This document shows positions 4,585-39,245 of a stretch of 64,000 nt of DNA, piece by piece. Location of the stretch: positions 36,890,001-36,954,000 of the forward strand of contig NC_047025.1 of the NCBI RefSeq assembly GCF_902652985.1, written 5' to 3'. The number at the start of each line of letters is the position of its first letter. Position 1 is the stretch's first letter. The translations under genes were made by a program, and so were the position numbers. The notes under the pieces were generated by a model. It saw nothing but the letters and a program-made list of their open reading frames with translations. It was not told the DNA's origin and did no database searches. The stretch comes from Pecten maximus. Taxonomy: Eukaryota.

Positions 4585-5136
4585 GAGATACTTTGACAGG
4601 CACCATGTAACAGGTCTCTGATAGAAAAAGAGCCAACAAGCGGAGTAGTACGAGGCGAGAACGATCACTGACTAAGGTCCTATTGGGTATTGCAACTTAC
4701 AAATTGTGCTCAAAGAACTAGCTCACTTGGCAATTTTTACAAGTATATAACAAGTGGACAACATCCACAGATGTGTTAACAACACAGATCTACTTATGAT
4801 TGTATAAATTACACAATAACGTAGATCATGCTACACATCGGTGAAATGTCACCAGAGTATGAGAGTGGATCAGCAAACACCTCACACTTTGGAGTAGACG
4901 GTATTATATCCTCAATGGTAATGACAACAAAATCATCTAAATTTAAATTGACAATACAAATTATAATAAACCTTTAAAATACAAAAGAAATCCAAATATT
5001 TAGATAATCAAAGCTTTCATATAGCTGTGATATGAATAAATGTCTTAACCTGTCGTCACCTACAAATGTATCTATTCTGGTCAGGCTTGTAACAAGGTAG
5101 CTCTGCTGGGCCTACAAGTACATTGTGGCCAAGTGT

Positions 5137-5605: not shown

Positions 5606-7102
5606 TGGTGGTATATGGATCATGAGTACTATTTTGTAATTCTGGCCATTCACAAGGACACATGGGAATCATTCAGTCATTAACAGGCAGCTTTAAGAGT
5701 ACAGAGCTGGCTATACCCCCATGCCATTCTCTCAGCACTTCCATTTGGATTTTTTTTTTTTATTAAAGAAGTCTCCAAAGGACAATTTGTAGGGACATCA
5801 CAAAGTATACAAATGTAGCCTGTTTGCAGTATATGCATGATTTTTTTATGCCACTTCTTATAAAAAAAGATTGACATGATTTAGAGTGTGAAATGGCTAT
5901 CCTTTATATCAGGTACAGTCTCACAGGCCCCACAGGGGTCCAAGGTGAAAATTGTGCAACACACAGGGGTAGAGATTTCAATGGTGTAATGCTGAACAAG
6001 ACTTTACAAGGGATGGACATTTTATCAATCTGTAGGAGTGTGAATATCCCGTTACTTCAGAGAAGTGAAGCATTAAAAAGGGGTGAACTTATACCTGAAT
6101 GATTTAACCATTGTATTCACACATCAAAGTTACTGTGTTCCAAAATCACTTGTATTCAAGTACATAATTAAAAGGTCATGATCATACTCTTTCTATCAGA
6201 TCGAGGTAAGAATAATTAAACAGATCAAATAGTTTTATAATTAAGCCTATTCAAAGTTCAGTCAAGTAAATGTTCTGAAAATTCAAATTATTATCAAACC
6301 TGATGATTTGGGAACTTGTATTCTGGGTGTAACATTATAATCAATGAACACGCTAGTGTCTCGGTGACCTTGACCTCTAGTACTCACTATTGACCAACAT
6401 AGAACATTGTAACAAGGAGTGCCTGTCCAGATATTGACCCTGATATCTGATTGCTCTACAGCGATTTTCAGAGGACCCAAACATATATTTGTTTTCCATT
6501 AAAAGGAAAAAAAATCAAATGACAGTAATTAGTTGTATTATTCCATTGAGCTAGTGGTCTGTGTGATTGGCCCACAGCAGACACATTATTTACACTGTGT
6601 TAGGTAGAGTCGGTTCCTCCTAACGACAATTCATCTGACAACCAATTAACCTATGCTTAAATACATTAACAAGTTGTTATTATCTGAAAAGGGATGTTCT
6701 ATCTGGCCTGGGCCCAGGACTACAATCTTTAATTAATTACAGTTCTTTTAATATCATTTATATTTCAAAATTTAAATAGTTTTTATAATTTACTTCACCT
6801 GGATCAAAAGTAAGTATATATTGTTTTGAACTTTTGAATAATTATAATCACACTGTAGGGAAACATGAATCTGACAATAAATGTAAACTTTGACAGATGA
6901 CAACCAAATCTATAATCAGATGTACACTGTTGTTATAAATCTCTCCAAGGGTTCATCAAATATCTAGTATCAAACTATTTGCCTGCAAGCACAGATGTAA
7001 AATAAAATATGTATGTACAAACTCGTGCACAGACAGACATATGCCCCCTCACATATAGTACTGGTGTCTACATGTAATGCTACAATGTATTTCATGATAT
7101 AA

Positions 7103-7686
7103 TGTAGCGGGGTGTAATATGTCTTAAAATGATGACAATGCCGCTGGGTTCGTTTGATTTCAAAGGTTTTATTATTACTCAAAAACCCACGTTAACACGT
7201 ATAGTGCATCAACGTGAGGCTTAACACTGCTCACTTCCATGACCGTCATATACCGCACAACAGATGTAAACAATACAGGAATACGACTCTATATGGTGAC
7301 AGATGAATTCGAAGACCTACATTTTGTAGCTCCGGCTTCAATGACGTCGAAATTCAAATGTCCCGAAACACAAAGAAACAAAGACTAAAACCACAGATAA
7401 GAACTTTCAACCAATCAAACAACTTTGTTACAGTCACATGTCACGTTCGTCAGTGAAATATACTCACAGGTACAAAGACATACACATACCAATATACAAA
7501 CACGCGCACGGGATCGCCGGTAACGAATATATATATATGCACGGACGCAGGTAAAAGGTCGCGAGGGCCTTATACCTCAATAATAAATACCTTACATATT
7601 TATTATATTTTATTAATAATTATCACACATATACATGTATACATTTCACAAATATCAAACACTTTATTAAAAATAACCCTATTACA
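7103..7686 (-). repeat. 3' LTR of Gypsy element 1 (584 bp)
   Basis: Direct repeat of 14811-15394; TG..CA ends; adjacent PPT. Confidence 0.97.
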
Positions 7687-7698
7687 TACTCCCCCTGG
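7687..7698 (-). other. Polypurine tract of element 1 (CCAGGGGGAGTA)
   Basis: Purine run directly 5' of the 3' LTR on the minus strand. Confidence 0.85.
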
Positions 7699-7933
7699 TT
7701 CGAAAAAGACGTCCTCGTCTTAAAACAAGTTGGGAAATATCTTACTTATCATAAATACAAAATCTAGTCATGTACATTATGCATCAAATACATTACTAAA
7801 TATCACAATGTCACAAATCATACGTACATTCAAATAAAAATCAAAAGAAAAGAGCGCGAATATGAAAGTTTAAGAAAAACACATATCTATTTAAAACATG
7901 TAGAATAAAACAGTCCAGCTGGAAACAATATAT

Positions 7934-10900
7934 CTAACAAATCACATCTCCACATACGATTCTAACGAGAGCATCTGATACTCGATCAGGAGCAAGTACT
8001 CCACGCTCACCCAGACGTTGTAAATACTCTGCTCTCGTGAACCAATCCGATGAAATCCCTTGACATAATTGGTTCATCACGAACTCTCCTGACTGCTGCC
8101 ACAAAGGAGGCTGCCTAGCTCTAGTAGATCTTCTAGGAGCTGGCGTTGGTACCCGTGGTGCAATTGGTGCTACCACATCTTGATCATCCTGGACTGAAAC
8201 ACCCCCAGTCTCATCATTCCCCGAGACTTGGTCGTCACCAGGCGGAGCTTCGTCCACTACCACAGTCGGATGACAGTCGTCACCATCAACAGACTGGGCA
8301 GACTCTTGTCTATCAGACGCCGGAGTATCCTCCTTGGGATGTGAAGGTATCCCATTCTCCAATTCTGATAGCGGGCCCTCTACAGGATCATCAATGACGA
8401 CTGATGAGTCGACATCTTCATCGGAGTCGCTGTCTGCGGTCTCCAAAGTAACAATATCCTCCTCCTCTGGCTTGGTCAATGTCCTCTTTCTTGTTGTTGA
8501 CTCCGGTTTCTCATCAAAACTCACTTCATCTGTGTCATGCAGGAAATCGATGGGCAAGAGCAAATTGCGGTGCAATGTCTTTTCTTTTCCTTCGCCATTA
8601 CACTTGCGGACGACATAGACAGGCACATCTGGATTAGGCTGACGAATCACGACGTATTCATCATCTTCCCATTTGTCGGAGATTTTGTGTTTTCCTTCAA
8701 ATGCCATAATCCGAACTAGAACTCTGTCTCCATCCTGTAAAGCAACTGCTCTAGCCTTCCTGTCGTAATTCCTCTTCTGGTGTTCTGCAGCTGTAGACAT
8801 AAACCGTCTTGCAGAGTCATAGGCATTCTTCAGGTTCTCGCGAAGAGACGATACAAACTTGGACAATGGTTGATGCTTCCCTCCAATGTCTATTCCGAAT
8901 GCCAAGTCGATGGGTAACCTAGGTTGTCTACCAAACATCAGAAAGAATGGAGAATAGCCTGTGCTATCGTGCCGTATGCTGTTGTATGCATGAACAAGAG
9001 GACCGACATGCCTTTTCCAGTCTCCTTTATCCTTCGGGTCCAAAGTACCCAACATCCCTAGCAACGTCCGGTTAAACCTCTCACAGCTTCCATTACCCAT
9101 TGGGTGGTACGGCGTAGTCCTACTCTTCTTGATGTTGGCTATAGCGCATAACTGGTGAATTAAGTTTCCAACAAAATTGGCACCTTGATCAGAGTGTATA
9201 CGTCTAGGCATTCCGTAATGTACAACAAAGTTGTAGAAAAATGCCTCAGCTGTAGTTTTAGCGGTTTGATTTTTCGTAGGAATGGCTTGTGCGTACTTGG
9301 TGAAGTGATCCGTCACAACCAGTATATGCTGAAATCCTCCTTTAGATGACTCCAAGGTAAGGAAATCCATACACACTAGCTCCAGTGGCTGGGTTGTCTG
9401 GATATTCACTAATGGCGCTTTCTGAGTAACTGCCTTCCTAAATATACAGCGTCGACACCTTTTCACCCATCTCTCCACGTCCTGAGTCATTCCTGGCCAA
9501 TAAAAACGTTCCTGAATAAGTGACAATGTCCTATCACGTCCGGGGTGTCCGACAGAATTGTGAAGTCCATATAAGGCTTGTTTCCGAAAAGCAGGAGGTA
9601 ATATCAGCTGTTTTCTGGATGTACCATCTTCTATGACTTCTCGATAAATCACCCCCTTATCGATTTTTAATCTGTCAAAGGAACGTAACAAAGTTTGCTG
9701 ATCAGGATCTAACTGTCTTCTATCTGGCCTCTGGTTATTCCGAACATAAAATAACATCTGCCGGAGTACTGGATCTCTGTCCTGAGCTCGTCTCCAATCT
9801 CTAGAAGTCATCTCCTGAATATCCTGACCAGAGTCCATGAATTGCTCATCAATGACTGAAGTAGACATGGAAACGGTCTCAATCCAGGCTACTGGCTGTT
9901 GTACTGCACCGCAAATAGCCTTGACAGAATCCAAAGGGATATCCTTAACAGATGTAGACTCCTCAATGTGGGATGGCAGTCTAGACATAATGTCAGCATC
10001 TGTATTGTTCTTTCCTGGCTTGTAGATGATGTTGAAGTCAAACGCGGATAATGCAGCCAACCATCTATGTCCCGTCGCATCCAACTTGGCAGACGTTAAA
10101 ACATATGTCAGTGGATTGTTGTCGGTGGTAACTGTAAACTTCCTTCCGTACAGGTAATCCGTAAATTTGTCAGTCACTGCCCACTTTAAAGCTAAAAATT
10201 CCAATTTATGGGCAGGATAATTCCGCTCAGATTTCGTCAATCCTCTGCTTGCATAAGCAATGACCCGCGGTTTTCCATCCTGCTGCTGGTAAAGGATCGC
10301 CCCAAGACCATGTCCACTTGCGTCTGTATGTACTTCAAATGGGATGTCATATAATGGATATCCAAGAACAGGCGGTGAGGATAAAACACTCTTCATGGTC
10401 TGGAACGCTGTTTCCTGCTCTTTCTCCCATTTCCATACAGTTGACGCAGTCTTGCTCCTAGTAGAATGGCCTTTCTTCCTTGTAGGTGGTAATAGCTCGT
10501 TCAGTGGCTTCACGATGGCAGAAAAACCTTCCACAAACTTACGATAGTAGCCACAGAATCCCAAGAAACGTCTCAAATCATCCGGACCAGAGGGCTTAGG
10601 CCAGTCAACTATCTTCTGTACCTTATCAGGATCTGCTTCTATACCATCCTTAGAAACAACGAAACCAAGAAACTTCACTTTCTTCTTGAAATAAGAGCAT
10701 TTCTGTGGAGCTAGCTTTAATCCATGGTGCCTTATCTTCTCAAATACTAACTCTAACCTCTCTATATGCTCACCGAATGTCTTGGAAAACACTATGACGT
10801 CGTCTATATAGACAAAGCAAATGGTGGTATGGAGCTCTCCAAGGCACTCTTCCATCAATCTTTGGTAAGTCGCTGGTGCATTCACTAACCCGAATGGCAT

Positions 10901-12340
10901 CCTATTGAATTCATAGAATCCTAACGGTCCGATGGTGAAAGCAGTCCTTGACTTATGTTCCTCGTGAAGTTCGACCTGATGGTAACCACTCTTCATATCC
11001 AGTGTAGAAAAATAATCACATCCTGATAAAGAATCTAAAATCTCCTCCACCCTAGGAAGAGCATAAGAATCCTTTACAGTCCTAAGATTCAACTGACGGT
11101 AGTCGATGCACATCCGCAGTCGTCCGTCCTTCTTCCGTACCAATACAACTGCAGAGGCCCAAGGTGAATGAGAGCGACGAATAACTCCTATGTCCAAAAG
11201 TTGATGTAGGTGATCACGCACTTCACTGAGCATAGCAGGAGGAATACGACGATGGCGTTGTTTAAATGGCACTTCATCTGTGAGCTCAATACGGTGATGA
11301 ACAGCATTAGAGTGTCCAAGATCCATATCCCCTTTAGAAAATATATCGGGGAAACTGGAAATCATCTGTTTACTAATTGTAAACTCCTCTTCAGACAATC
11401 TATCATCAAACTTCATCTGTCGCATCAAGGCTTCCATATCCGTGCCTACAGAATCATCAGTATCATCAGATGTGTCCACATCTTGCAAACATCCTTCGAC
11501 CTTCACTGGCTGAATCTCACAAAGCACCGCACGAGGCTGTATGGTAACATTCCTGGCAGTGATGTTAGATATGGTCACAGGAACAACGCCATTTCCTCTA
11601 TAATGGTACTGAATAAGACTGGGCGATATATCCAAATCATCGACTAATGTCGACTCATTCGATGTTGTAAGGTAAGCACTGGTGGGTGTATGCTCGACTT
11701 GATGATCAACGTAGCCATTAATAGTAACTTGACTATTGGGCTTAACTTGAATTGCAGTACCTTCAGCACTCTTTACTACACCAAGACAGAATTTTTTCCG
11801 AATCAAATTCTGTTGACGCAATGCAATACATCGGAATGTAATATACCAAGGCGTCGAGAGTGAGGATCCTTTCATCAACTTATCACCACAAACTTGCTTA
11901 CAGGAGTCCATGATATCCATCAATATGTTGGTCCCCACTAGAATTGGTACCTTAGAATTATATCTGGTGTCTGGTACAACCAATAGAAGTCCTGGTAAAG
12001 GTGTATTGTGGCCCTCAATTGTAGTCTCTATCTCGGCCTGTATAAAACCATCATATGGCAATGCCTCTCCCCCAGCACACTCAATATCTAAAACATCGTT
12101 TAAAGAATGAAGTGGTAAATGGCTCAAATGACTGTCGTAGAAGTTACGACTAACAGTGCTGACCGCTGAACCAGTATCCAACAATGCGGTAGTATTCACC
12201 CCAGAAATCTTTAACTGTTCCTCACTGCAATCTCCAACCAGTGCTGTACCGGTATCATCATGATCATCTTGCATGATAGGGCTCTGTTGTCCAATCCTGC
12301 CTACTGGTGCCCCAGGCCTGTAGGCGTCCGAGCGTTTAAA
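7934..12340 (-). CDS. pol: Pol polyprotein (protease, RT, RNase H, integrase, acidic tail), translated via -1 frameshift from gag
   Basis: LLDTGS protease; LRMCIDYRQLN and YIDD RT motifs; TDASGHG/LEFLALKWA RNase H; HNSVGH...CRRC zinc finger; IHSDQG/ERFNRTL integrase core. Confidence 0.96.
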   Translation of the reverse strand, partial: FKRSDAYRPGAPVGRIGQQSPIMQDDHDDTGTALVGDCSEEQLKISGVNTTALLDTGSAVSTVSRNFYDSHLSHLPLHSLNDVLDIECAGGEALPYDGFIQAEIETTIEGHNTPLPGLLLVVPDTRYNSKVPILVGTNILMDIMDSCKQVCGDKLMKGSSLSTPWYITFRCIALRQQNLIRKKFCLGVVKSAEGTAIQVKPNSQVTINGYVDHQVEHTPTSAYLTTSNESTLVDDLDISPSLIQYHYRGNGVVPVTISNITARNVTIQPRAVLCEIQPVKVEGCLQDVDTSDDTDDSVGTDMEALMRQMKFDDRLSEEEFTISKQMISSFPDIFSKGDMDLGHSNAVHHRIELTDEVPFKQRHRRIPPAMLSEVRDHLHQLLDIGVIRRSHSPWASAVVLVRKKDGRLRMCIDYRQLNLRTVKDSYALPRVEEILDSLSGCDYFSTLDMKSGYHQVELHEEHKSRTAFTIGPLGFYEFNRMPFGLVNAPATYQRLMEECLGELHTTICFVYIDDVIVFSKTFGEHIERLELVFEKIRHHGLKLAPQKCSYFKKKVKFLGFVVSKDGIEADPDKVQKIVDWPKPSGPDDLRRFLGFCGYYRKFVEGFSAIVKPLNELLPPTRKKGHSTRSKTASTVWKWEKEQETAFQTMKSVLSSPPVLGYPLYDIPFEVHTDASGHGLGAILYQQQDGKPRVIAYASRGLTKSERNYPAHKLEFLALKWAVTDKFTDYLYGRKFTVTTDNNPLTYVLTSAKLDATGHRWLAALSAFDFNIIYKPGKNNTDADIMSRLPSHIEESTSVKDIPLDSVKAICGAVQQPVAWIETVSMSTSVIDEQFMDSGQDIQEMTSRDWRRAQDRDPVLRQMLFYVRNNQRPDRRQLDPDQQTLLRSFDRLKIDKGVIYREVIEDGTSRKQLILPPAFRKQALYGLHNSVGHPGRDRTLSLIQERFYWPGMTQDVERWVKRCRRCIFRKAVTQKAPLVNIQTTQPLELVCMDFLTLESSKGGFQHILVVTDHFTKYAQAIPTKNQTAKTTAEAFFYNFVVHYGMPRRIHSDQGANFVGNLIHQLCAIANIKKSRTTPYHPMGNGSCERFNRTLLGMLGTLDPKDKGDWKRHVGPLVHAYNSIRHDSTGYSPFFLMFGRQPRLPIDLAFGIDIGGKHQPLSKFVSSLRENLKNAYDSARRFMSTAAEHQKRNYDRKARAVALQDGDRVLVRIMAFEGKHKISDKWEDDEYVVIRQPNPDVPVYVVRKCNGEGKEKTLHRNLLLPIDFLHDTDEVSFDEKPESTTRKRTLTKPEEEDIVTLETADSDSDEDVDSSVVIDDPVEGPLSELENGIPSHPKEDTPASDRQESAQSVDGDDCHPTVVVDEAPPGDDQVSGNDETGGVSVQDDQDVVAPIAPRVPTPAPRRSTRARQPPLWQQSGEFVMNQLCQGISSDWFTRAEYLQRLGERGVLAPDRVSDALVRIVCGDVIC
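12277..12340 (-). promoter_or_regulatory. -1 ribosomal frameshift signal: U UUA AAC slippery site plus predicted H-type pseudoknot
   Basis: Gag frame TCT TTA AAC; the -1 frame continues FKRSDAY into pol; stem1 GCCUAC(A)GG/CC(A)GUAGGC, stem2 UGGGGC/GCCCUA. Confidence 0.85.
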
Positions 12341-13395
12341 GACTTTCTGCTGTGATCTAAATTCACTCGACAATCTCGTTTGATGTGTCCTGGCTGTCCA
12401 CATCTCCAGCATACTGGTCTATCACTATCTCCTCTATAAGGTTTGTCCTGCCTCCTATAGTCCTGAGGTACCTTATAAGATCCACGTGCAGGTGGACAAC
12501 CATGGCCTGACTCCCTATTCTTCTGTAAGGATACTAAATCCTGTTTCAGCTTAGACATCTCAGTCGTAAGGTCCTTTACCAAAGCCTTCATTTCTTTAAT
12601 GTCCTCGTTGTGTGGTATGGCAACCTTAACAGGTTTAGGCTTCTCTGGTGAGGCGTCGGCCTGCTCTATCTGCCTAACAGCAATGCGAAGTTTGTCATAG
12701 TCCTGAATAGTATCAAACTTGTGACCAGTAACATCACGTAGCGACTTCTTAAGTCCACGCCAAAACTTAGTCCGTAACATCTCTGTGACCTGAGATTGGG
12801 TAAGCTCACATCGGGTTTTAGCTCTATCCAAAATATCTTCAAGTCTACTGGCCCAAGATGTCACACTCTCTGAATCTTCTTGTTTAGCAGAATAAAATTT
12901 GGCAAGCAAATCCTCTGCAGCAGCAATGTTTCCATAGTTTCCAGTCATCTTATCCAACACCTGTTGTAATGCAACTGAAGATCCCATTCTTCTAGCTGTA
13001 TTTGCTGCTTCACCTCTTAAAGATCTTCTCACGGCTTGGAAAATAGCCTGATCCTTGTAAATTCCATCTCGTTGTAACATCTCAACCTCATAGATCCATT
13101 GCTCAAACGGTACCTCTCCATGAGGGACTTGTGGAGATCCTGAAAATATGGAAATCTTCGGCACATAATATGAAGTATTATGTGTGCTGGATGGTACTGT
13201 ATCATCTCGATGATCTTGTAACACCTGGGAAAGATCGAGGATCGGTTCACGCTTCACAACCTTGGCTTTAGCTCCTCCCGCTAAAAGATCAGTTAACCAC
13301 TGAGCTGCAGTATCCTTAGATTCTAGATCTGGTTTAAGGTTCATAGCTGCTAAAGCCTCCATCAAATGTTCAGCTTGCTTCCCAGCATCCGCCAT
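12301..13395 (-). CDS. gag: Gag (PNMA-like capsid plus CCHC zinc knuckle); probable start MADAGK
   Basis: KISIFSG...EVPFEQWIYEVE capsid-like motif; CWRCGQPGHIKRDC knuckle; strong context ACTATGG at 13395. Confidence 0.93.
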   Translation of the reverse strand: MADAGKQAEHLMEALAAMNLKPDLESKDTAAQWLTDLLAGGAKAKVVKREPILDLSQVLQDHRDDTVPSSTHNTSYYVPKISIFSGSPQVPHGEVPFEQWIYEVEMLQRDGIYKDQAIFQAVRRSLRGEAANTARRMGSSVALQQVLDKMTGNYGNIAAAEDLLAKFYSAKQEDSESVTSWASRLEDILDRAKTRCELTQSQVTEMLRTKFWRGLKKSLRDVTGHKFDTIQDYDKLRIAVRQIEQADASPEKPKPVKVAIPHNEDIKEMKALVKDLTTEMSKLKQDLVSLQKNRESGHGCPPARGSYKVPQDYRRQDKPYRGDSDRPVCWRCGQPGHIKRDCRVNLDHSRKSLNARTPTGLGHQ

Positions 13396-14790
13396 AGTTG
13401 AAGTATTACACAGAGTACACAAGCACAATAATACAAGTAATATAATCATGAAGTCCAATGTGAAAAATGAGAGCCAATACTGCAAAAAAAACCTAACAAA
13501 GTCCAAATATGCCGATAACTGGAAATAAATTCAAGAAAATTTTAAAGTCCAAATAAGCTGAAAATCAAAAATAAATACAGAAAATTCATCAAAGTCCAAA
13601 CACAGGTAATAATACACAAGAAAATATTATATAAATGTGTATAGGAAAATAAACACTAGCAATAAATCAAAGTCCAAATTTATCTGAAAATCAAAGCTGA
13701 AATTGAAAAAGAAATGAAAACGCAAACACGGTTCAAATTAATAGAGCTAGTCTAAAGCCTACAAGGTGTCTGAAATTCACAAAAATAAACAACCACAAAA
13801 TATCTGAAATGCAAAAAGATACAAACAATGTCAAAGCGACAAATATTTCTAAGTATAAACACCTAAAGCAATAAATTCTAACACCGAATAAATCAATTAA
13901 ATGAAAGAAAATCCACAAAATCTGAAAGAAAAACTCATAGATTCAAAGATATACAAAATAAAGTACTATGTAAAGGGAAATAATCATTAGCTAATCTATC
14001 AAGGGCAAATAACTCACCAATGTCAAGACAATAATCAACAAGATAATCTAATTACATATATAAGCAAGCATGTGTCTAGATGGCATTGATAAAAAAACAA
14101 ATTGACATAACACACAAACTAAAGTAATCTAGATTACAGGGTATTACGCGAAAACCGAAAACTCCGAACAGAAAAGAAAAGCGTGTCGCAAGCGCAGCAG
14201 TTCAACATATATAACACACAAACACAGATTGAACAACAAATAATAATCACATGGAAGTCACGACAGTGTAATGTCAGTTAATGTGTCTTGGTCAGTGCAA
14301 AATATCAACTACCCAACTAAGAATAGATAAACCGACAAATAAAGAACCAATGCAGCAAAAGATTTACTAAGTATACAAAGATACTAACCTTTCTACAGCG
14401 GGTAAGCAGGGCAGGTACAGGTAGAAGTTTCCATGCTCACATTCAGATTCACGATTCAGATCCACACATTTTACGAATAATACAGGAATAAACACATGAC
14501 AACACTAAATTCCAAATAGAATACACGAATAAACACATAAATAATCCATGCTATAATGAATGAGTCACTGAATAATATCCTTTCCCGTCATAAAGTTCAA
14601 TTTAGTTCAAAATGAAAACGTAAGTCCATTCACATGTGTGCCACCATCAACATCCGGTTTCACATATCGGTGTCACCTTCCCATAGTGCCATACTGAAAA
14701 GTTCCGGGTGCAAAAGTTCCGGACCAAACTGGAATTCGACGATCACGTCAGGCAAGTGCAAACCCTCCGGTCCCTCAGTCTAACGGAGTA

Positions 14791-14808
14791 GTCCCTACAT
14801 GGGCGCCA
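14791..14808 (-). other. Primer-binding site of element 1, tRNA-Lys-like (TGGCGCCCATGTAGGGAC)
   Basis: 2 nt after the 5' LTR; 14/18 match to the tRNA-Lys3-type PBS TGGCGCCCGAACAGGGAC. Confidence 0.8.
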
Positions 14809-14810
14809 TT

Positions 14811-15394
14811 TGTAGCGGGGTGTAATATGTCTTAAAATGATGACAATGCCGCTGGGTTCGTTTGATTTCAAAGGTTTTATTATTACTCAAAAACCCACGT
14901 TAACACGTATAGTGCATCAACGTGAGGCTTAACACTGCTCACTTCCATGACCGTCATATACCGCACAACAGATGTAAACAATACAGGAATACGACTCTAT
15001 ATGGTGACAGATGAATTCGAAGACCTACATTTTGTAGCTCCGGCTTCAATGACGTCGAAATTCAAATGTCCCGAAACACAAAGAAACAAAGACTAAAACC
15101 ACAGATAAGAACTTTCAACCAATCAAACAACTTTGTTACAGTCACATGTCACGTTCGTCAGTGAAATATACTCACAGGTACAAAGACATACACATACCAA
15201 TATACAAACACGCGCACGGGATCGCCGGTAACGAATATATATATATGCACGGACGCAGGTAAAAGGTCGCGAGGGCCTTATACCTCAATAATAAATACCT
15301 TACATATTTATTATATTTTATTAATAATTATCACACATATACATGTATACATTTCACAAATATCAAACACTTTATTAAAAATAACCCTATTACA
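14811..15394 (-). repeat. 5' LTR of Gypsy element 1 (584 bp)
   Basis: Direct repeat of 7103-7686. Confidence 0.97.
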
Positions 15395-16996
15395 TAACAC
15401 AACAGACTTCCTACATCCACATCTCTGTATATGGGATCCAGATATAAGATATTGATCAGATTTACAGATTGTTTTGCTGTCCTACAAATGAATTTACATT
15501 TGTGTATTCATGCAGTATAACAGAAATGATCATTAAGCAGTCTGAGTTTCAAGGTTTAGTTTAATTAGCTTAAACCAACCCAGGATATAGATGATGTATC
15601 AATTCTGTACTCTGCTACCGTGTACTGTGCAACAAGAAGCATTAAAGGATAAAGATTCCTGTTTCTTAGGGGTTTATAAAACCAACACATCCAGCTACAA
15701 TTAATTTTAAGATCCATGAGCTCTTTAAATTGGTAGAAATTAAAAGTTAATTACAGTGAGAGCTTTATGATTCATATGAATGGAGCAAAATGTATAATAA
15801 AATTAAAAGACTCGGGTTTGATGTATGGGGTATTGGACTGTTACTATAGGTCTAAAAAGATACAATTGTATACAGTTTGTAATCTGACAGGGGACACAAC
15901 TCTACATAGTTATACTATTCTTTTGATATGCTTAAAGGTGAGGTTGGTGCACCTTTTGACCTCTCATATGTTTGTTACCAAATGGAGGTGTATTAACTTT
16001 CTTGAGAATAAGTTTGTACTACAGAAAAGAAAAGATTTAAAGGCATCTGATTAAACTACATGTATATGTATATAATTATATGTTACGGTACATGTACATA
16101 ATTCCAACAACATGCACAACTATTTGACTGGTCCAGCAACCTGTATAATTATAAAGGATTCAGCACATTTTTGTACAATTATTTGTTACAATTAATTTCT
16201 GTAACATCACTAATTGTCAGCACACCAGAAATCGGTACATAGGAAGGTCGCGAACAAATGACACACAGGTAAGGCTTTGGAATGATATATATATATATTG
16301 CCTGTTTATATATACATCAATCACAATTTCACATGTTCTAAATTGTTTGCTATATTAACTAAGACTAGATATTAATGTCAAAGAGTACTACACCAGGGGA
16401 GGTAATCTGATATTGGTTCTCAGATTCTAGCTGTACCACCTAATTCCAGCAGCCGAGCCCCAGCAGATTAATAGAAGTCCAACAAGGATCAGAGAAAATT
16501 AGAGTATTTAAGTCAATGTCTTCTGTTTTTTTCAAATATTTAAAATAACATTTAATTTTGATAATGCTATGTTAAATGAACATAAATGTAAAACATGTTG
16601 GAATCAAACATGTACTGTTTAAAAAAAAACAAAAAAACTATTGACAAGATATTATTGAATGAGACAACAATTTGGCTTGCAAAGTTATTAAAATCTTAAG
16701 TACTTTCAATTACAATGAACTAGCACATCTGCATTTGTTACTAATTTTTTTATCTGGAACATGCATTTTTTTTTTCTATAGATTTAAGAAAAATAACAGT
16801 TTCTATATCAGGGTAGGATAGGCTTTGAATGTATGTACATGAGATGATTTGAAGTGATGTTTAATGGTTGCACTCTAAATCTAAGAGGTTATCTATCGAA
16901 ACATTCCGTTATCTCCAGGTAAAGATGTAATCGTGTGAACTCGGCCCATTTACACCTGTATATTAAAAGATTTTCCTGATCTCAACACAACATAGA

Positions 16997-18944: not shown

Positions 18945-19051
18945 TAGTGGTATAGGCTGCGGGTATTTCTGGCTAGGCGATTGGGTGCCGTAGATCTTGA
19001 GTTCGAGGCCTGGTCAGGGCACGAGTCAAAAAATTGTCTTCCTTCATCACA
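18945..19051 (+). mobile_element. tRNA-derived fragment (SINE head or solo tRNA-type LTR)
   Basis: A-box-like TAGTGGTATAGG and B-box-like GAGTTCGAGGCC; no cloverleaf. Confidence 0.55.
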
Positions 19052-19116
19052 AACAAATGTTGGATGCATATTACTAGAAATAGATAATTATAATTTTTTT
19101 TTTTTTGTAATACAAA

Positions 19117-19596
19117 TGTACATGTATATTGATATAGATAAAGAGGCTTTATAAGCCTGCATCCATAATGCACCATCCTAATTCCTGATATCTTGCTAGG
19201 TTGAACATAGAATGTAGAATATAGCAAGCCTGAAGACCTAGTCTGATCCCTAGGTGAGGCACTGAAATATTTTTTTAGCTTACCATGCACTGATCTGTAA
19301 CATTGACACCCATGTAGGGACTCAGGAATCATTGGATATTTAACGTTACTTTCACAACCATCTACATTGTAACCCCTAATGAAGACTTAATGAGGCTAAG
19401 TGAGTTTTTCCCTAGAGGAGCCGAGGAGTTGTAAACTTGTATACAATATACCACTTATAGCTGGAGAGAACTTCTCATTAGCTTGAATCGGTTGATCATA
19501 GGACTAGTAAAAATTAAGCCACAGGTCCTGGCTTTCGATCCCTATCAGAGGCACCGAAATACATTTTCTCTCTCATTAATCCTGCATTCTGTTACA
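19117..19596 (+). mobile_element. Degenerate TRIM with tRNA-like LTRs (Helenus-like): 5' LTR ~19117-19302, PBS 19304-19321, PPT 19414-19428, 3' LTR 19430-19596
   Basis: Both LTRs end CTGT(A/T)ACA and share GATCCCT...GAGGCAC(C/T)GAAATA; PBS TGACACCCATGTAGGGAC; PPT AGAGGAGCCGAGGAG before TGTAAAC; A/B-box-like motifs in the 3' LTR; 5' boundary uncertain. Confidence 0.65.
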
Positions 19597-19664
19597 TATC
19601 TGATATTGTAATAAAGTTTGGTTTGTAATAGTAATAGTGTAACGTACACAGGGAGTACAACGGA

Positions 19665-19714
19665 GCGGTCACCCATCCAAGAGCTGACCATGCTCGACAT
19701 TGCTTAACTTCGGT
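19665..19714 (-). ncRNA. 5S rRNA-derived internal control region (box A, IE, box C) inside the TRIM 3' LTR; not a complete 5S gene
   Basis: ACCGAAGTTAAGCAATGTCGAGCATGGTCAGCTCTTGGATGGGTGACCGC closely matches the central part of invertebrate 5S rRNA as I recall it. Confidence 0.85.
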
Positions 19715-20003
19715 ACAAAAGCCACAAAAGTTAGCTCTGAAATGCCCATATCCATGAACCATCACAGTACCCCCTTCACCGATAAGCTTCATCCCGAAGC
19801 TTCCATGGGTTCAACCTGGCATCCTCAGCAAACACAACTGTCCCTGTTATTGTTATAGTGGTGCCGCCTCATGACCAGACCCCCTGGTCACCAACAAGTC
19901 TCCAGGAACATTGTGCTTCCCATGCTGTCTAAGGGCACCCTACAGGATACCTGAGGCCCCTTTCGCTGCCACCAAATGTAACGTGCACAAGGGGAACAAC
20001 GGA

Positions 20004-20046
20004 GCAGTCAACCATCCAAGAGCTGACCACGCTCGACGTTGCTTAA
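20004..20046 (-). ncRNA. Second 5S-derived segment in the TRIM 5' LTR, cut at TTAA inside box A (continues at 21953)
   Basis: TTAAGCAACGTCGAGCGTGGTCAGCTCTTGGATGGTTGACTGC. Confidence 0.8.
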
Positions 20047-21948
20047 AGCCACATACTCCCAAAGAAACATATATCAATGGTTACATTTTGAACTTTTTAT
20101 AGTTTTCAGACTTGATACATACCTAACAGATCATCATTAATCAGAAACTGAAAGAAGATGTGTATTTATGAAAGTATACTGGGTATTCACAAAAATAATT
20201 ACTGTGGCTGCCGGACCAAGTTTCTCTGAAAATTAGTCCCACAATGCAACGGCGGGTTTTACAGTCCATACAAAATGGTAGAATGCCGAAAGCGTGGACC
20301 TGCAAAAACGCAGACATATTCTGCAAAAAAAAAACGTAAAAGGGAGTGGAATAGCATACATGTCAACCTCTGAAACCTCCAATGAGGGAGATCTCCCTCA
20401 TTCCACATCTAAAATCAGGGAGAAAGTGCGTGAAAAAAATCGCGACATTTTTTTAGGTGATGTTCCTCATGGGCTTGTGCAGGTGTAAATTACCTCGGGC
20501 TACAGTTTGATATTTAAATTTGACAACAATGGTTAATTTTAAAGAATAATGATAATAAAAAAAAAATAGAAGAAAAAAATTAATTTAAAAAAAAATGTTT
20601 TCAGAAATTTCATAGAAAGGAACTGTATTTAGTGTATTATATTATTAATGATGTAGTCACTTGAAATTTGCAACCAGTATACAAAGCAACTACTTATCTC
20701 CTGATTTTTTTTTTTTTCATTATTTTGTTCTGAAATATTTCTAAATGTATCAAATTATCTCCCTTCCTTTCTCAAATAATAATTACACGGTAATTTATTT
20801 CTTTTTGTTTTACTAGTAGTTCTATTATGACATAAAACAAACTTCTTAAAAAGTCTTTTTATTTTCTTTCTGACCCAAATTGAAATCCGGATTTTTGTGG
20901 CAGTTTACGATTTATATTAGTATTGACCAATTAAAGATGGCGGCAGTACAAACGCTGGTACTGACAGCTACGATTAAGAAAGGCATTATTGGCTTTCATG
21001 TGAGTAAATCTTGTTGGCAGATATTATCAGTGTTTGTTCTTGAAGTGATGTATCCTAGTTGTAATCACAAAATTAACTGACCATGTCAAATGAAGCCAAA
21101 TACAGTTGTAATGTATACACCGGTCGGCAGGCTTGCACGATGAGTGGTGACCGACCCTCTCTCACCAAGCCCCAGGCCAGGGCAGCTACACAGGTGGTGG
21201 GGTTGTTTTGATTACATAATCAGATTAGGGTCGAAGTGTCTGAGATTTCCGGGGTTTTATGAGGGAAGACTGCTCAAATCCGGGAGAAATTTAACCCCGA
21301 TTCGGGAAATGTAACAAATCGGGATTTAGGGGAAATTTAATTGATTTTCCGGGCACTTCCCGCGTAATCCGGGAAGGTTGACACCTATGGAATAGGCAAA
21401 ACCCGAGTATTTCCTTAGGAAAGGAAATGATGTGTTGGAACTAAGTGAGAAAAGATAATGGAATAGACTCTTGCAAATTTCGATTTTGCCGGACGTCTAT
21501 TGGATTGCTGGTTAGCTTTTGAACATTGTCAACTTCACCAATTAAAAATTTTATTGATGTTTTAATTGTATGCATATTGCTACATTTTAAAATTAAGTAT
21601 TAAAATGTAAACTGTGTTTGTTTATTTTTTTTCAGTTATTACACGAATATTCTGTTAATATATTTAAATGAAAGCATTATTAGACAAAGTTCACATATGC
21701 TCAATATGTAAACAACAGCCATGTGTGTAGTTTATGTGCAGCACACGTTGTTATAGCCTTGTTCTCGGCTCATTGACAAATCTTGCGATAAATATAAATG
21801 CAGCGAGTTATTTTTATACACTGATGTCTCAAGGACTCCCCTGGTCAAGCGTCCTGGCCAGTGGTCATTTTAATGTTAGGAGAGCGTGAATGAGCATCTT
21901 GGATTGCCATCAATACATGTGTACAACTAGAATAAGAGTATAGTGGCT
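20047..21948. mobile_element. Non-autonomous TTAA-specific DNA transposon (Kolobok-like termini AG...CT) inserted in the TRIM 5' LTR
   Basis: TTAA TSD at 20043-20046 and 21949-21952; TIR AGCCAC-ATACTC / GAGTATAGTGGCT. Confidence 0.8.
20355..21389. mobile_element. Non-autonomous DNA transposon (1035 bp) with a 6-bp TSD, nested in the TTAA element
   Basis: TSD GAATAG (20349-20354, 21390-21395); 15-bp TIR CATA(CA/GG)TGTCAACCT; subterminal CGGG repeats; 22-bp perfect palindrome at 20381-20402. Confidence 0.82.
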
Positions 21949-22690: not shown

Positions 22691-25600
22691 GTGCGTGCAT
22701 ATTTTAGTTAACAATGTTTAAACCAAATGACACTTGAACACAATATGCAATGTTTTAGCAAAGTAAATTAGCCTGATTGCGATTTGGAGGTTACTGATGT
22801 TTACGTTTGGACAACAGGCTAAGCAATGCTATTATTAGATAATAATTGAATATTGCATTGTTTTTCTTATATTTCTATTGACAAATAAGTATAATTCAGG
22901 CCTTTAATTATAGTGATACATCAGACAGTATATTACATATCAGACGATGCAAAACCTTGTTAAAATAATCAGCTGGAGGAGGACAAACACTAAATTCGAC
23001 CCCTACCCCCCCCCCCCCCCCCCCCCTCCACATTCTCCATCTCATCGTCCCCATTAGGAGTTATTTGTTTATGTTATATGTCTTTTATATATTTTATATA
23101 GGTACAATGACAGGTATAGTCTTGTCTATAAATGTATACGTTTACAGTCATTTATACATTTAGCAGGTATAGGCCTACCAAGGATATACATGTATGTACA
23201 TACATGTATAATGTGTGTCTTCAGGTATACTGAAGCAACAGTTAACTTGAAATTGGCTATGTATATATAGGCAGGTTTGACTATAGTTGTAACCAAATAT
23301 TGGTGATGTGAAAGTGGATTCTGAAAAAAATGCACCATTTAAATTCCACAAATATAAAGTCGCTTGATCATGAGATTAAGGAAATGAACCGAAATATTAA
23401 TTAAGCTGTGATTGGTCATCCATTTTTCAGTTTGATTTAGCTATTCATGTTCACTCTATATATACATGAATAAATAAGCCTGTGAATGTAAATTGTGAAG
23501 CTCTAACATACACTTAACCATACAGTACAACATTGCAGTGGTTGGTAACAAACTTACATTAATGGTTTTTCACATATCTCAATACCTTTTCAAAGATTGG
23601 CTTTTTTTAAAAAGGGACACATCATATTCAGTTGAGTTATTAAACCAAGCTTGATTATAGATTGAGTGTGTTGACAGACATTGCTAGTACCTATAATTCA
23701 ATCATTGCTGATGTACATGTCAACATTTAAGGATCTAGATCCAGTATCAGAAAATAGTTTATGATCAAATATCTTAAATCAATATGTAGCAGATAATTTT
23801 TGTGAATTTTGTTTTAATGTGATAAAAATAAAGTATTCCTTTTTTATTTCAGGTATTTAGGAGAGCCGATAAAAATGGTAAATATCACATTTTTTTTCTG
23901 GACGTGTATTATAGCTTAAAATAGTATTTCATTTTTTGGAATACCTCATCTCTGTTTGAACGACCTCATCAGGATTGATAACATAAAACCATTTGATATG
24001 AAAATTTAGACATGTTATTGACATTAGTCAGATAAGGTTGTACTGTAATTGTCTTCATGAAATCTAATTACAACGATTAATTTCAATTTTGACATTAATC
24101 ATAATTATTAAGGCTTCAATTAATTTGACTACATTCAAAACAACTTGTTTTTCATTGGCCCATCACTATATTGACTAGAACATGCATCATTTTGGTAGAA
24201 ACAATGTGAGGCCAGTAAAAGTTACAGGAATGTAGTAACAAGGGTTTGTATAGGAATGTAGTAACAAGGGTTTGTATAGGGATGTAGTAACAAGGGTTTG
24301 TAGAGGAATGTAGTAACAAGGGTTTGTATAGGAATGTAGTAACAAGGGTTTGTAGAGGAATGTAGTAACAAGGGTTTGTAGAGGAATGTAGTAACAAATG
24401 GTTTTGTAGAGGAATGTAGTAACAAGGGTTTGTATAGGAATGTAGTAACAAGGGTTTGTATATGAATGTAGTAACAAGGGTTTGTATAGGAATGTAGTAA
24501 CAAGGGTTTGTATAGGAATGTAGTAACAAGGGTTTGTAGAGGAATGTAGTAACAAGGGTTTGTAGAGGAATGTAGTAACAAGGGTTTGTAGAGGAATGTA
24601 GTAACAAGGGTTTGTAGAGGAATGTAGTAACAAGGGTTTGTAGAGGAATGTAGGAACAAGGGTTTGTAGAGGAATGTAGTAACAAGGGTTTGTATAGGAA
24701 TGTAGTAACAAGGGTTTGTATAGGAATGTAGTAACAGGTTTGTAGAGGAATGTAGTAACAAGAGTTTGTAGAGGAATGTAGTAACAAGGGTTTGTAGAGG
24801 AATGTAGTAACAAGGGTTTGTAGAGGAATGTAGTAACAAGGGTTCGTATAGGAATGTAGTAACAAGGGTTTGTAGAGGAATTTAGTAACAAGGGTTTGTA
24901 GAGGAATGTAGTAACAAGGGTTTGTATATGAATGTAGTAACAAGGGTTTGTATATGAATGTAGTAACAAGGGTTTGTATATGAATGTAGTAACAAGGGTT
25001 TGTATAGGAATGTAGTAACAAGGGTTTGTATAGGAATGTAGTAACAAGGGTTTGTAGAGGAATGTAGTAACAAGGGTTTGTAGAGGAATGTAGTAACAAG
25101 GGTTTGTAGAGGAATGTAGGAACAAGGGTTTGTAGAGGAATGTAGTAACAAGGGTTTGTATAGGAATGTAGTAACAAGGGTTTGTATAGGAATGTAGTAA
25201 CAGGTTTGTAGAGGAATGTAGTAACAAGAGTTTGTAGAGGAATGTAGTAACAAGGGTTTGTAGAGGAATGTAGTAACAAGGGTTTGTAGAGGAATGTAGT
25301 AACAAGGGTTCGTATAGGAATGTAGTAACAAGGGTTTGTAGAGGAATTTAGTAACAAGGGTTTGTAGAGGAATGTAGTAACAAGGGTTTGTAGAGGAATG
25401 TAGTAACAAGGGTTTGTAGAGGAATGTAGTAACAAGGGTTTGTAGAGGAATGTAGTAACAAGGGTTTGTAGAGGAATGTAGTAACAAGGGTTTGTAGAGG
25501 AATGTAGTAACAAATGGTTTTATAGGGGAATGTAGTAACAAGGGTTTGTAGAGGAATGTAGCAACAAGGGTTTGTAGAGGAATGTAGTAACAAGGGTTTG

Positions 25601-28600
25601 TAGAGGAATGTAGTAACAAGGGTTTGTAGAGGAATGCAGTAACAAGGGTTTGTATAGGAATGTAGTAACCAGGGTTTGGAGAGGAATGTAGTAACAAGGG
25701 TTTGTAGAGGAATGTAGTAACAAGGGTTTGTAGAGGAATGTAGTAATAAGGGTTTGTAGAGGAATGTAGTAACAAGGGTTTGTAGAGGAATGTAGTAACA
25801 AGGGTTTGTAGAGGAATGTAGTAACAAGGGTTTGTATAGGAATGTAGGAACAAGGGTTTGTAGAGGAATGTAGTAACAAGGGTTTGTAGAGGAATGTAGT
25901 AACAAGGGTTTGTAGAGGAATGTAGTAACAAGAGTTTGTAGAGGAATGTAGTAACAAGGGTTTGTATAGGAATGTAGTAACAAGGGTTTGTAGAGGAATG
26001 CAGTGACAAGGGTTTGTAGAGGAATGTAGTGACAAGGGTTTGTAGAGGAATGTAGTAACAAGGGTTTGTAGAGGAATGTTGTAACAAGGGTTTGTAGAGG
26101 AATGTAGTGACAAGGGTTTGTAGAGGAATGTAGTAACAAGGGTTTGTAGAGGAATGTAGTAACAAGGGTTTGTAGAGGAATGTAGTAACAAGGGTTTGTA
26201 TAGGAATGTAGTAACAAGGATTTGTACAGGAATGTAGTAATAAGGATTTGTACAGGAATGTAGTAACAAGGGTTTGTAGAGGAATGTAGTAACAAGGGTT
26301 TGTAGAGGAATGTAGTAATAAGGGTTTGTAGAAGTTAACATTGTTACTTGTGCTAGTATACTGTACTTGGAAATATTGTAGATTTTGTATTTTAGTTTGA
26401 ATTTACTTACGTTTATAATGACTCTTATTTAGGGGGATAGCTATAGGTAGTTTTCCTCTCCATCAAATTTAAAGTTTGTCAGCACTGTGGATCTAGGAGC
26501 TTCATTTCTTGAGGGGTTACATGTTATATCTGAAAAAAGTTCTGCTTTCTTGTTTGTGTCAAGGTCACTAACTAGTGAACATGAATTACTTGTTTTTTTC
26601 TGATGATCATATAAGATATTGATTGATACCTTATTGAAGGTTTTATATCCTTCTTTTGTATTTAGATACATTTTTTGAAATCTGTATTGTTAAAAAATGT
26701 TTGTCAGATGACGGAGCCATATCTTGGGAGGAATTTGTCGGATTTTTCTCCGATGGTATCATGGGTAAAGAGGAATTGGAATCTCTCTTCAAGGAAATCG
26801 ACACACATAACACCAAGTAAGCTGAGTTTAAACTTTAAACACATTGCTATGGTTGATCATGATATGTGCCTTCAGTTATTTTTAGGACTAGTCAGTCATG
26901 GACTCGTGCTTTTCCTGTGCACAACAGATGCATATAGATATTGAGTACCATATGAAAAAAGTTTTGGTCTCAAAATTAAATGAAATAATCCTACAAAAAT
27001 TACTGGGATTTGGTTTTATCAAGTTGTAGCATTACAACTAGATTTTCTGGAAAATAAAAACATAATGGGACAATATAATAAATCAATTCTTTCTATTATA
27101 TGATGTTTTTAACAGCTCCCAATTTTTTATTAGAAATGAATAATAAAATAAATAGAAGTGTATCATTGTCGTATTGCCCTCTACACTTGAAGCAACCTGG
27201 CATCTCCGACGACATCCACATATAGTGGTATATAAAGTTTCCCCATCATGTCCTGTTCAATTTTCTATGATATTAGTTAATGCTAGATGAATTAATGTTG
27301 TATGTTTTTTCATCCATATCCAATAATTTTGAAGTGTGTAATATTTGATGGATATCTATGTGTTCTATACCTGTTTTCAGTAATATTGACATAGGTGAGC
27401 TTCATGACTACTTCTGTACACATCTGGGTCAGTTTAAGGAACTTTATAGCCTGGTGGAGGATTTCAACACCAAACTATCCAATGTTTTAGTGTCTACATC
27501 ACAGGTAAACTCACCGAAATCTGATGTCTTGATCATTATTAGTACTATAACAACAAACTAACCAATATCTTGCATCTTCATTTTGGTAAACATGCTGGAT
27601 ACCCCGTAATGACAGAAGTCCATCACACTCCTCATCAAACTAATAATATTGCCTTTATTTTGTTGATACTAGTACCCAGTTACAATATTTATAAGTATTT
27701 ATTATTGCATTTTTACCAGTGAAATAAAGAAATTTATCCTTTCAATATGGCACCCCCAAGTTGACATGGAGTAACACCACAAAGAGGTGACATCATGAAT
27801 TAAGTTACTGATTCCCGCACTTTTTGACACTATCATTCTTTTGATTTTTTAAAAACAATTTTTAGCATATGAATGCAATAAATAGAAAATTGAATGGCTT
27901 CCCTTTGAATATAACATATATATCACTCGTATAACAGAACATTTCGATATTTTTCACTTGGGCTTCGCACTCGTGAAAATATTGATATTCTGTCATACGA
28001 GTGAAATATACTGTATATTATATTCAATGGTAAACCATTCAATATCCTCTATTTATTTGCATTTCTTTCTTTAAAATCTTAAATGAAATCTTTACTGTCT
28101 GTAGTACTTTCAGCCAATATATTATTTTGCAGTGTTTACTAGATTTAAGTATACATAGTGCCTTAAACATCCATTTTACTTGATGAAAGGTTGATTACTT
28201 TATTGTTTTTGAAGACCTACCCAAGTGCTGGAAGGATGGATAAATTCATCACACGATTTCTTGTCCGGGAAATGTGGAACCAAATTACAGCCATACAAAT
28301 CCCGTTGGAATCTGCCTCAGAATCTCTGGATGAACAGGCTAAACAGGAAAGGTAGTGGCAACTTTTCTTGATAACCATCAAATTTCATGTTTCTTGGTCA
28401 TCTGGTGTCAACTTTTCTGGGAAAAATATGTTTGAAACAGTTATAGGAAGTTTCTATTGACATGCCTCACACTGACATGTCCTGTCAATCTTTACTTGAT
28501 TGATACTTTTACTGGAAAGTCCAGTTGCAGTTAAGGTGCTAGGGCCATCAAGGTTTTCTGTGGAACCCTAAAATCAGATTTGAGTTTAAGGATTGAAGGA

Positions 28601-38500: not shown

Positions 38501-38716
38501 TTGCTGTTAAGGAAAGCTGGTACGACATGCAAATTGCTTATTGTTAATTGCTTATATACTTCCATTACAAACCTGGACATATCGTTAAAATTTGTCAATG
38601 AAGAAAAACGTTCCTTTAAGATAAAGGAACTATTAGATGCAAAGCTGTATGTCTGTTTTGGCAGAAGGTCTAAGGCAGCATTTAATATTCCAAAGGCCTA
38701 TTGTAAGTCTACTGTA

Positions 38717-38884
38717 TGTTGATTCGTGGGTTCTGTACATGTGTGTGCATTCATAACACGAGGCTTGTCTGTCAGGCAGCCATATTTAATACACAAAGCA
38801 TCATGGGAAGCGGGTAATACAAATTACAGAATCGGTTGTATTAATTTACAAATCCGACAATGCGGAACGCATATATCATTAACA
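38717..38884 (-). repeat. 3' LTR of element 2 (168 bp); PPT GGAGAAGAAGGGA at 38885-38897
   Basis: Direct repeat of 43027-43194. Confidence 0.97.
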
Positions 38885-39245
38885 TCCCTTCTTCTCCAAT
38901 AATTTTGAAAGTATTTCAAAATAGTACTTTTCCTAGACCCGACTACCAAACATTTTTAACTCTCTATAAAATTGAACTGAGATTTTCATACAGATCTTAT
39001 GAGCATTACTTTTGTAGGAGTCTGAACACAATTGCTCAAAATCACATATTACTTTGAAACAAACAAAATAAATTGCAACAGTCTCTAACATGAACTTTAA
39101 CCAATAACTGAATGATTCACCATGAACTGTTTAACTTGACAGTCCTACGTATACTATGATCACAACTAAAATATTTGAACAGTCTCTTAAAGAATTGAAC
39201 ACAGTCACAGTCTGTAACTGAAACACAGTATCTAATAACGCGAAA

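What the first reader, a model, noticed from the sequence alone, without database searches (positions are those of the whole stretch)
19117..19596. Adjacent tRNA-LTR TRIM (Helenus-like) whose PBS matches the unusual PBS of the intact Gypsy element 4 kb away
Seen: two diverged ~170-bp repeats ending CTGT(A/T)ACA with A/B-box-like motifs. Between them are TGACACCCATGTAGGGACT right after the first and a purine tract right before the second. That PBS differs from element 1's TGGCGCCCATGTAGGGACT by only two G>A changes. Inference: a second Pol III-promoter TRIM that borrows the enzymes of an element-1-like Gypsy family, so an autonomous/non-autonomous pair may be visible in one window.
Basis: partly seen in the sequence, partly recalled or inferred. 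Interest (0 to 1): 0.7.

Follow-up and report, generated by a model that had tools for sequence, protein, structure and literature searches.

The report
Known mini-retrotransposon, many Gypsy helpers
This is an old, decayed copy of a tiny gene-less jumping element already published from scallops; elsewhere in the genome the same family is fused to several families of full-size Gypsy retrotransposons exactly at their shared tRNA primer site, which likely records whose enzymes it borrows, and the neighbouring Gypsy element is not among those fusion partners.

Summary
The TRIM is real: LTRs 19150-19302 and 19430-19596 (68% identical), PBS and PPT. It is a decayed member of the published Helenus-1_PeMa lineage (Kojima 2024); this scan has met the family before on other DNA. 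The PBS is not unusual: it is the exact complement of this genome's tRNA-Lys(UUU) 3' end, shared by at least four intact-looking Gypsy families. Element 1 has identical LTRs, so it is far younger than this copy; adjacency is probably chance.
New here: 16 loci where a foreign LTR and Helenus-1 are joined at the PBS. Five donor families were shown to be Gypsy of element 1's clade (RT 56-72% identical). Eight of the 16 have a perfect 4-bp target duplication around the whole unit, and for one the empty site was seen in another individual. Element 1's own family gave 0 hybrids at 14 junctions, against 4 of 9 for family B. Helenus-1 therefore likely rides in the particles of many Lys-primed Gypsy families rather than one partner. 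I found no such hybrids in print (nine searches). Co-packaging and Pol III transcription are inferred, not tested.

The parts
19150..19302 (+). 5' LTR of the TRIM, decayed (TG start reads TA); tRNA-like core barely detectable
   Evidence: Alignment to young copy L172: 96 of 140 aligned positions; score against host tRNA-Lys(UUU) reached by 33 of 500 shuffles
19239..19250 (+). Box B position in 5' LTR, broken (GGTTC not kept)
   Evidence: Sequence, alignment to L172
19304..19321 (+). Primer-binding site: 16 of 18 match to the 3' end (+CCA) of host tRNA-Lys(UUU)
19303..19429 (+). Non-coding internal region, 127 bp (105 bp in the published family)
   Evidence: 77 of 105 aligned positions identical to L172; Table S1 row
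19414..19428 (+). Polypurine tract, decayed
   Evidence: Sequence; aligns to the PPT of young copies
19430..19596 (+). 3' LTR, TG...CA, with tRNA-derived core
   Evidence: 121 of 149 aligned positions identical to L172; score against host tRNA-Lys(UUU) 38, reached by 0 of 500 shuffles
19479..19491 (+). Box A-like motif in 3' LTR
   Evidence: Alignment to host tRNA
19530..19542 (+). Box B-like motif in 3' LTR, GGTTC interrupted
7103..15394 (-). Element 1 (family A): intact-looking Gypsy, 584-bp identical LTRs (14811-15394, 7103-7686); a member of the likely helper clade but not shown to be this TRIM's helper
14791..14808 (-). Element 1 PBS, 18 of 18 match to host tRNA-Lys(UUU)
12301..13530 (-). 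Element 1 gag frame (PNMA, zf-CCHC)
7934..12418 (-). Element 1 pol frame (RT, RNase H, integrase in Gypsy order)

Best explanation
The window holds an old, decayed copy of the Helenus-1_PeMa lineage of tRNA-LTR TRIMs, a family that is likely transcribed from the tRNA-type promoter in its LTR, likely primed by the host's tRNA-Lys(UUU), and likely copied and integrated inside the particles of several related Lys-primed Gypsy families rather than one dedicated partner. Shown: LTR-PBS-PPT-LTR anatomy; family match; exact PBS-tRNA complementarity; 4-bp target duplications; recent activity of the family; 16 hybrid loci joined at the PBS; one hybrid absent as a unit from another individual. Inferred: hybrids form when plus-strand strong-stop DNA (LTR + 18-nt PBS) of one genome anneals to the minus strand of the other at second-strand transfer, which needs both RNAs in one particle. 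The PBS is the only homology needed, which would explain the promiscuity. Element 1 belongs to this clade and may be one helper among many, but its position 3.8 kb away is probably chance.
For: Family: young copy L040 matches the published LTR at 158 of 159 and the internal part at 103 of 105 positions, read by eye. Window copy 69-81% to young copy L172. Primer: 17 genomic matches end in the exact PBS complement and 7 in a one-base variant, of 60 matches; 9 of 9 tested are tRNA-Lys(ttt). TSD 4 bp in 31 of 45 Helenus units; 6 of 35 LTR pairs 100% identical. Hybrids: 11 of 20 hits, 4 of 9 hits, and one reverse case L165. Perfect 4-bp TSD around the whole unit in 8 of 16, one mismatch in 1, unresolved in 7; chance of a 4-mer match 0.0055. 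Empty site for L197: one contig of run X2 joins L226:4144 to 5266, skipping the 1117-bp hybrid plus one TSD copy. Donor families B, C, E, F, I: RT 56-72% to element 1, against 32% for Leu-primed element 2. TSD around a composite as the mark of a reverse-transcription origin: PMC1950507.
Against: Co-packaging and Pol III transcription were not observed. 7 of 16 hybrids have no resolvable TSD. L174's 5' end is defined by its TSD, and no empty site was seen for it. Donors H and J were not shown to encode Gypsy proteins, and G only by a 100-aa integrase-end match. Families A and D are active and share the PBS yet gave no hybrid. The window copy is at the edge of the family (67% over 362 bp by blastn) and shares a variant motif with 3 other decayed LTRs, so it may be an older subfamily whose helper is extinct. 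The census used exact-PBS patterns and misses decayed junctions.
Confidence: 0.8

Rival explanations
1. Element 1's family is the dedicated helper, and the two neighbours are an autonomous/non-autonomous pair.
For: Identical PBS; the best PPT-terminus match among families A-G, 15 identical bases across the PPT/LTR border; both families have copies with identical LTRs; 4-bp TSD in 9 of 11 family A units read.
Against: 0 of 14 family A junctions lead into Helenus, against 4 of 9 for B (Fisher p = 0.014). No LTR or internal homology above background. This TRIM copy (68% LTR identity) long predates element 1 (100%). No Helenus LTR hit in the 44 family A loci screened (about 1.5 kb of flank each). 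With at least 1583 LTR-motif hits, a copy lies within 4 kb of a given element about 1.4% of the time, before counting decayed copies or the many elements of the clade.
Confidence: 0.08
2. The hybrids arose after integration by DNA recombination or gene conversion between a resident Gypsy and Helenus DNA, using the 18-bp PBS and the few shared terminal bases; they say nothing about helpers.
For: All these LTRs end in similar bases, giving a second micro-homology. Unequal recombination is the usual explanation for multi-LTR elements (PMC1950507; PMC6934838). 7 of 16 hybrids lack a resolved TSD.
Against: Recombination between separate insertions leaves unmatched flanks, yet 8 of 16 have perfect TSDs. 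L173 has two 100% identical Helenus LTRs around a Gypsy body. The L197 site is empty in another individual. Crossovers on 18 and about 5 bp of homology are improbable (established knowledge).
Confidence: 0.1
3. It is a tRNA SINE pair or chance repeats, not an LTR element.
For: Young LTRs resemble tRNA. The window copy has no TSD.
Against: Related copies have TG...CA LTRs, PBS, PPT, 4-bp TSDs, solo LTRs and tandem arrays, with no A-rich tail; the family is published as a TRIM.
Confidence: 0.01

Closest known systems
Helenus-1_PeMa (Kojima 2024, PMC10886601; Data S1, Table S1, Fig. S2C)
   Same: 159-bp LTR, 105-bp internal part, 4-bp TSD, same PBS; young copies here match almost letter for letter.
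   Different: The window copy is only 69-81% identical to a young copy and has no TSD. The paper aligns this PBS, with a gap, to Aplysia tRNA-Lys-CTT; here it is an ungapped match to the host's tRNA-Lys(UUU). The paper names no helper for this family and has no 'chimer' or 'hybrid' in its main text.
Helenus-2_ArIr, Helenus-1_MiYe, Helenus-3_MiYe (same paper)
   Same: Same LTR start, internal layout and PBS type; the window's 3' LTR shares the GAGAGAACTTCTC variant with ArIr and MiYe-3, read by eye.
   Different: Other scallop species; not aligned by program.
Template-switch complex insertions (Sabot and Schulman 2007, PMC1950507); TRIM-TRIM chimeras in sugar beet (PMC13570524)
   Same: Composite LTR elements integrated as one unit, diagnosed by flanking TSDs.
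   Different: In the parts I read, those join members of one family through homologous LTRs, or two non-autonomous families. Here unlike LTRs of an autonomous Gypsy and a TRIM are joined at the PBS alone.
Cassandra and Ajax (5S-promoter TRIMs)
   Same: Pol III-type promoter in the LTR; no LTR homology to a helper.
   Different: 5S rather than tRNA promoter; the helper of Cassandra is stated to be unknown.

Membership tests
TRIM | Two direct terminal repeats, under 1 kb, non-coding | tested here: met
   447 bp; LTR alignment above all 2000 shuffles; no ORF of 150 aa or more there
TRIM | PBS after the 5' LTR and PPT before the 3' LTR | tested here: met
TRIM | Target-site duplication | tested here: inconclusive
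   Absent in this copy; 4 bp in 31 of 45 family units
Helenus (animal) | tRNA-derived sequence with boxes A and B in the LTR | tested here: met
   Young LTR vs host tRNA-Lys(UUU) 60.5 and window 3' LTR 38, each 0 of 500 shuffles; window 5' LTR 33 of 500. Rfam found no tRNA in either; box B is broken in this copy.
Helenus (animal) | 4-bp TSD and PBS shared with Gypsy | tested here: met
Helenus (animal) | Transcription by RNA polymerase III | not testable with these tools
   Untested also in the defining paper; only contigs were available
Helenus-1_PeMa | Sequence cluster at 75% identity and 75% coverage (paper's method) | tested here: inconclusive
   Young copies meet it; window copy 294 of 394 aligned positions (75%, gaps excluded) but 67% by blastn. 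Possibly an older subfamily.
Dedicated autonomous/non-autonomous pair with element 1 | Shared LTR or internal sequence, or recombinants, specific to the pair | tested here: not met
   No homology beyond PBS and PPT; 0 of 14 junctions hybrid
tRNA SINE | A-rich tail, no PBS or PPT, variable TSD | tested here: not met

The most novel reading that the evidence does not exclude
A Pol III-type TRIM needs nothing from its helper but a shared primer: it enters the particles of any Lys-primed Gypsy family and leaves PBS-joined, TSD-flanked hybrids that name its helpers directly. Scanning genomes for such junctions would identify the unknown helpers of Cassandra, Ajax and other orphan TRIMs, and hybrids such as L173 (Gypsy genes between two Helenus LTRs) are a route for LTR and promoter swapping between families.
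Probability: 0.7. Interest if true: 0.62.

Novelty: new variant of a known kind. Interest (0 to 1): 0.45.

Why it matters
The element at the given coordinates is ordinary and already catalogued. The label 'new variant' refers to the hybrids. The defining paper says it is not known how a TRIM's dependence on its autonomous partner is maintained and that no helper is known for Cassandra; a 2026 survey proposes generalist mobilisation but calls for evidence. PBS-joined hybrids with target duplications are a genomic record of who was copied with whom. They support the generalist model, correct the primer assignment for this family, and give a cheap search that can be run on other orphan TRIMs.

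Tried and rejected
ARAGORN found no tRNA in the window. Rfam found no tRNA in the window copy or in two young copies, so tRNA-likeness rests on alignment to host tRNAs. A 5' end at 19106 or 19117 was rejected by alignment to a young copy. LTR or internal homology between TRIM and elements 1 or 2: background only. An autonomous element with ordinary Helenus LTRs: L168, L169 and L160 (Helenus LTR + PBS + foreign DNA) match no family A-D internal region and show no same-strand Gypsy protein; only the composite L173 has Gypsy genes between Helenus LTRs. Empty-site test for L174: none among the listed pieces, though both junctions are spanned by contigs of two samples. RNA runs were held only as contigs, so expression was not examined. 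Eight of the 20 hits were ordinary Helenus with point changes and one (L181) had no recognisable LTR; these nine were not counted as hybrids. Literature searches found no report of TRIM-Gypsy hybrids joined at the PBS; the library lacks most subscription journals, Repbase was not available, and supplements of the other papers were not read.

Full report
Observation. The motifs are as described. The two repeats align with a local score of 80, against a maximum of 56 in 2000 dinucleotide shuffles and 57 in 1973 real segments of the window; 110 of 161 aligned positions are identical. Alignment to a young genomic copy sets the element at 19150-19596: 5' LTR 19150-19302, internal 19303-19429, 3' LTR 19430-19596. 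No target-site duplication (TSD) survives and box B is broken in both LTRs. Element 1 is a Gypsy at 7103-15394 (-) with 584-bp identical LTRs, a PNMA-type gag and RT-RNase H-integrase, 3.8 kb away on the other strand.

Family. A genome search gave 51 matches at 66-91% besides and including the window. The related copies are well-formed TRIMs. One of them, L040, matches Helenus-1_PeMa of Kojima 2024 (PMC10886601, Data S1) at 158 of 159 LTR and 103 of 105 internal positions, compared by eye. Of that paper I read parts 1-5 of 6 of the text, supplement passages and part 10 of 11 of the supplement. A 23-base LTR motif occurs 1583 times with up to one mismatch. Among units with both ends in outside DNA, 31 of 45 have a perfect 4-bp TSD, and 6 of 35 LTR pairs are identical (median 95.6%; this sample leans to young copies). 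The window copy is 69%, 73% and 81% identical to young copy L172 in its three parts and shares a variant motif with three other decayed LTRs, so it may be an older subfamily. Earlier notes of this scan met Helenus-1 and -3 elsewhere in this genome.

Primer. The PBS is the exact complement of a host tRNA 3' end plus CCA: of 60 matches to a T-arm/acceptor pattern, 17 end in the exact complement and 7 in a one-base variant, and 9 of 9 tested are tRNA-Lys(ttt). The paper aligned this PBS with a gap to Aplysia tRNA-Lys-CTT. The exact 18-mer occurs 286 times; of the first 30, 27 are Helenus, 1 is family A and 2 are other LTR families. At least four intact-looking Gypsy families (A = element 1, B, C, D) share it, each with a copy whose LTRs are 99.6-100% identical. 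PBS sharing therefore does not single out element 1.

Hybrids. A search for the PBS followed by Helenus internal sequence but not preceded by the usual Helenus LTR end gave 20 hits: 11 have a foreign LTR, 8 are Helenus point variants, 1 has no LTR. Four of 9 family B LTR-PBS junctions lead into Helenus, and L165 is the reverse, Helenus LTR-PBS-B internal. That makes 16 loci with 8 donor LTR types (B 5, F 3, C 2, G 2, E, H, I, J 1 each). TSDs around the whole unit are perfect in 8: L197 CAAG, L187 GAAT, L177 TTTC and L178 CAGG (foreign LTR at one end, Helenus LTR at the other), L201 CTTA and L190 TGAA (Gypsy LTRs outside), L173 TAAA (two identical Helenus LTRs around a Gypsy body) and L174 CATG (5' end defined by the TSD itself). 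L189 has one mismatch and 7 are unresolved. A chance 4-mer match has probability 0.0055. LTR starts were fixed independently for B and C (intact copies), F (its own second LTR), I (other copies) and J (it interrupts another Helenus copy). For L197, a contig of another sample (run X2) joins the two flanks with one TSD copy and skips the 1117-bp hybrid. For L174 no empty site was seen, but both junctions are spanned in two samples, one of which may be the assembly's own. Donors B, C, E, F and I have RT 56-72% identical to element 1, against 32% for the Leu-primed element 2; G shows a 100-aa integrase-end match; H and J were not shown to encode proteins.

Element 1. All 14 family A LTR-PBS junctions found continue into family A sequence, against 4 hybrids of 9 for B (p = 0.014). 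In its favour, A has the best PPT/terminus match to the TRIM (15 identical bases) and makes 4-bp TSDs in 9 of 11 units, so it may still be a helper. The two window copies differ greatly in age (LTR identity 100% against 68%). A Helenus LTR lies within 4 kb of a given element about 1.4% of the time by the motif count, and none was seen in the flanks of the other family A loci screened. I read the adjacency as chance.

Mechanism. From established LTR-retroelement biology, plus-strand strong-stop DNA copies the LTR and the first 18 bases of the primer tRNA and then anneals by that PBS to a minus strand. If it anneals to the minus strand of a different RNA in the same particle, the product has one LTR from each parent, joined at the PBS, and is integrated with one TSD. 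That is the structure of L197, L187, L177 and L178. The 18-base primer copies that vary among near-identical family A elements fit the same step. Shown: structures, TSDs, one empty site. Inferred: co-packaging, Pol III transcription. The main rival, recombination after integration, predicts unmatched flanks or two-LTR Gypsy alleles at these loci.

Comparison with print. TSD-flanked composite elements from template switching are known within families (PMC1950507, part 1 of 2 read); TRIM-TRIM chimeras and a generalist-helper proposal are in PMC13570524 (passages); recombination across families is called rare in PMC6894440 (passages); helpers were found by similarity for 11 of 289 plant TRIM subfamilies (PMC4717578, passages) and for none in biv-TRIM (PMC6934838, passages). 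Nine searches found no report of TRIM-Gypsy hybrids joined at the PBS; subscription journals, Repbase and unread supplements could hold one.

Verdict. The element is a dead copy of a known family and the window does not show a dedicated pair. The follow-up gives direct genomic evidence that this Pol III-type TRIM is likely served by many Lys-primed Gypsy families. Interest 0.45.

Noticed in passing
window 19638-20085 (-): A second TRIM-like element 41 bp from this one, tail to tail: repeats 88.6% alike over 70 bp, PBS TGGTGGCAGCG (Leu type, as in element 2), PPT near 19767-19778, and an LTR core that reads by eye like the 5S-derived core of Ajax-1_LiLo. Ajax was reported only from nemerteans; one search found no other paper. 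Rfam gave no 5S hit; no TSD seen; copies not searched.
   Followed up: partly
L233-L246 (family A junctions; L238 is the window's element 1): Primer switching within one young Gypsy family: of 14 PBSs, 9 match tRNA-Lys(UUU) variant 1, 2 variant 2, 2 match tRNA-Lys(CUU) over all 18 bases, 1 is a point mutant; the 1-2 bases after the PBS also vary.
   Followed up: partly
L171, L172: Two young Helenus-1 copies with a Lys(CUU)-type PBS on an otherwise standard element; L172 has identical LTRs.
   Followed up: partly
L247 / L177 and L248-L260: Family I natively carries a Lys(CUU)-type PBS (12-base match) yet forms a TSD-flanked hybrid with Helenus through the Lys(UUU)-type PBS.
   Followed up: partly
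L253 / L254: Two family I LTRs joined head to head through a palindromic fusion of two PBS copies.
   Followed up: no
L063:1488-1525: A Helenus-2-like LTR end followed by about 37 bases of reverse-copied tRNA-Lys(CUU) including CCA, longer than the usual 18.
   Followed up: no
window 15395-15397 and 7100-7102: Element 1 is flanked by a 3-base repeat (TTA), not 4; the same holds for L125/L126, while 9 other family A units have 4.
   Followed up: no
window 38716-43194 (-): Element 2: Gypsy with 169-bp identical LTRs, Leu-type PBS, RT 32% to element 1.
   Followed up: partly
L101, L158, L202-L205: A rearranged Helenus unit (LTR-PBS-inverted LTR) repeated at several places.
   Followed up: no
window about 18950-19030 (+): A/B-box-like motifs suggesting a decayed tRNA SINE just upstream, so three Pol III-type elements may lie within 1.2 kb (read by eye).
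   Followed up: no
window 2700-4700, 24150-26430, 55130-58860 and others: Long minisatellite arrays (33- and 29-bp units among them) that produce spurious long ORFs.
   Followed up: no
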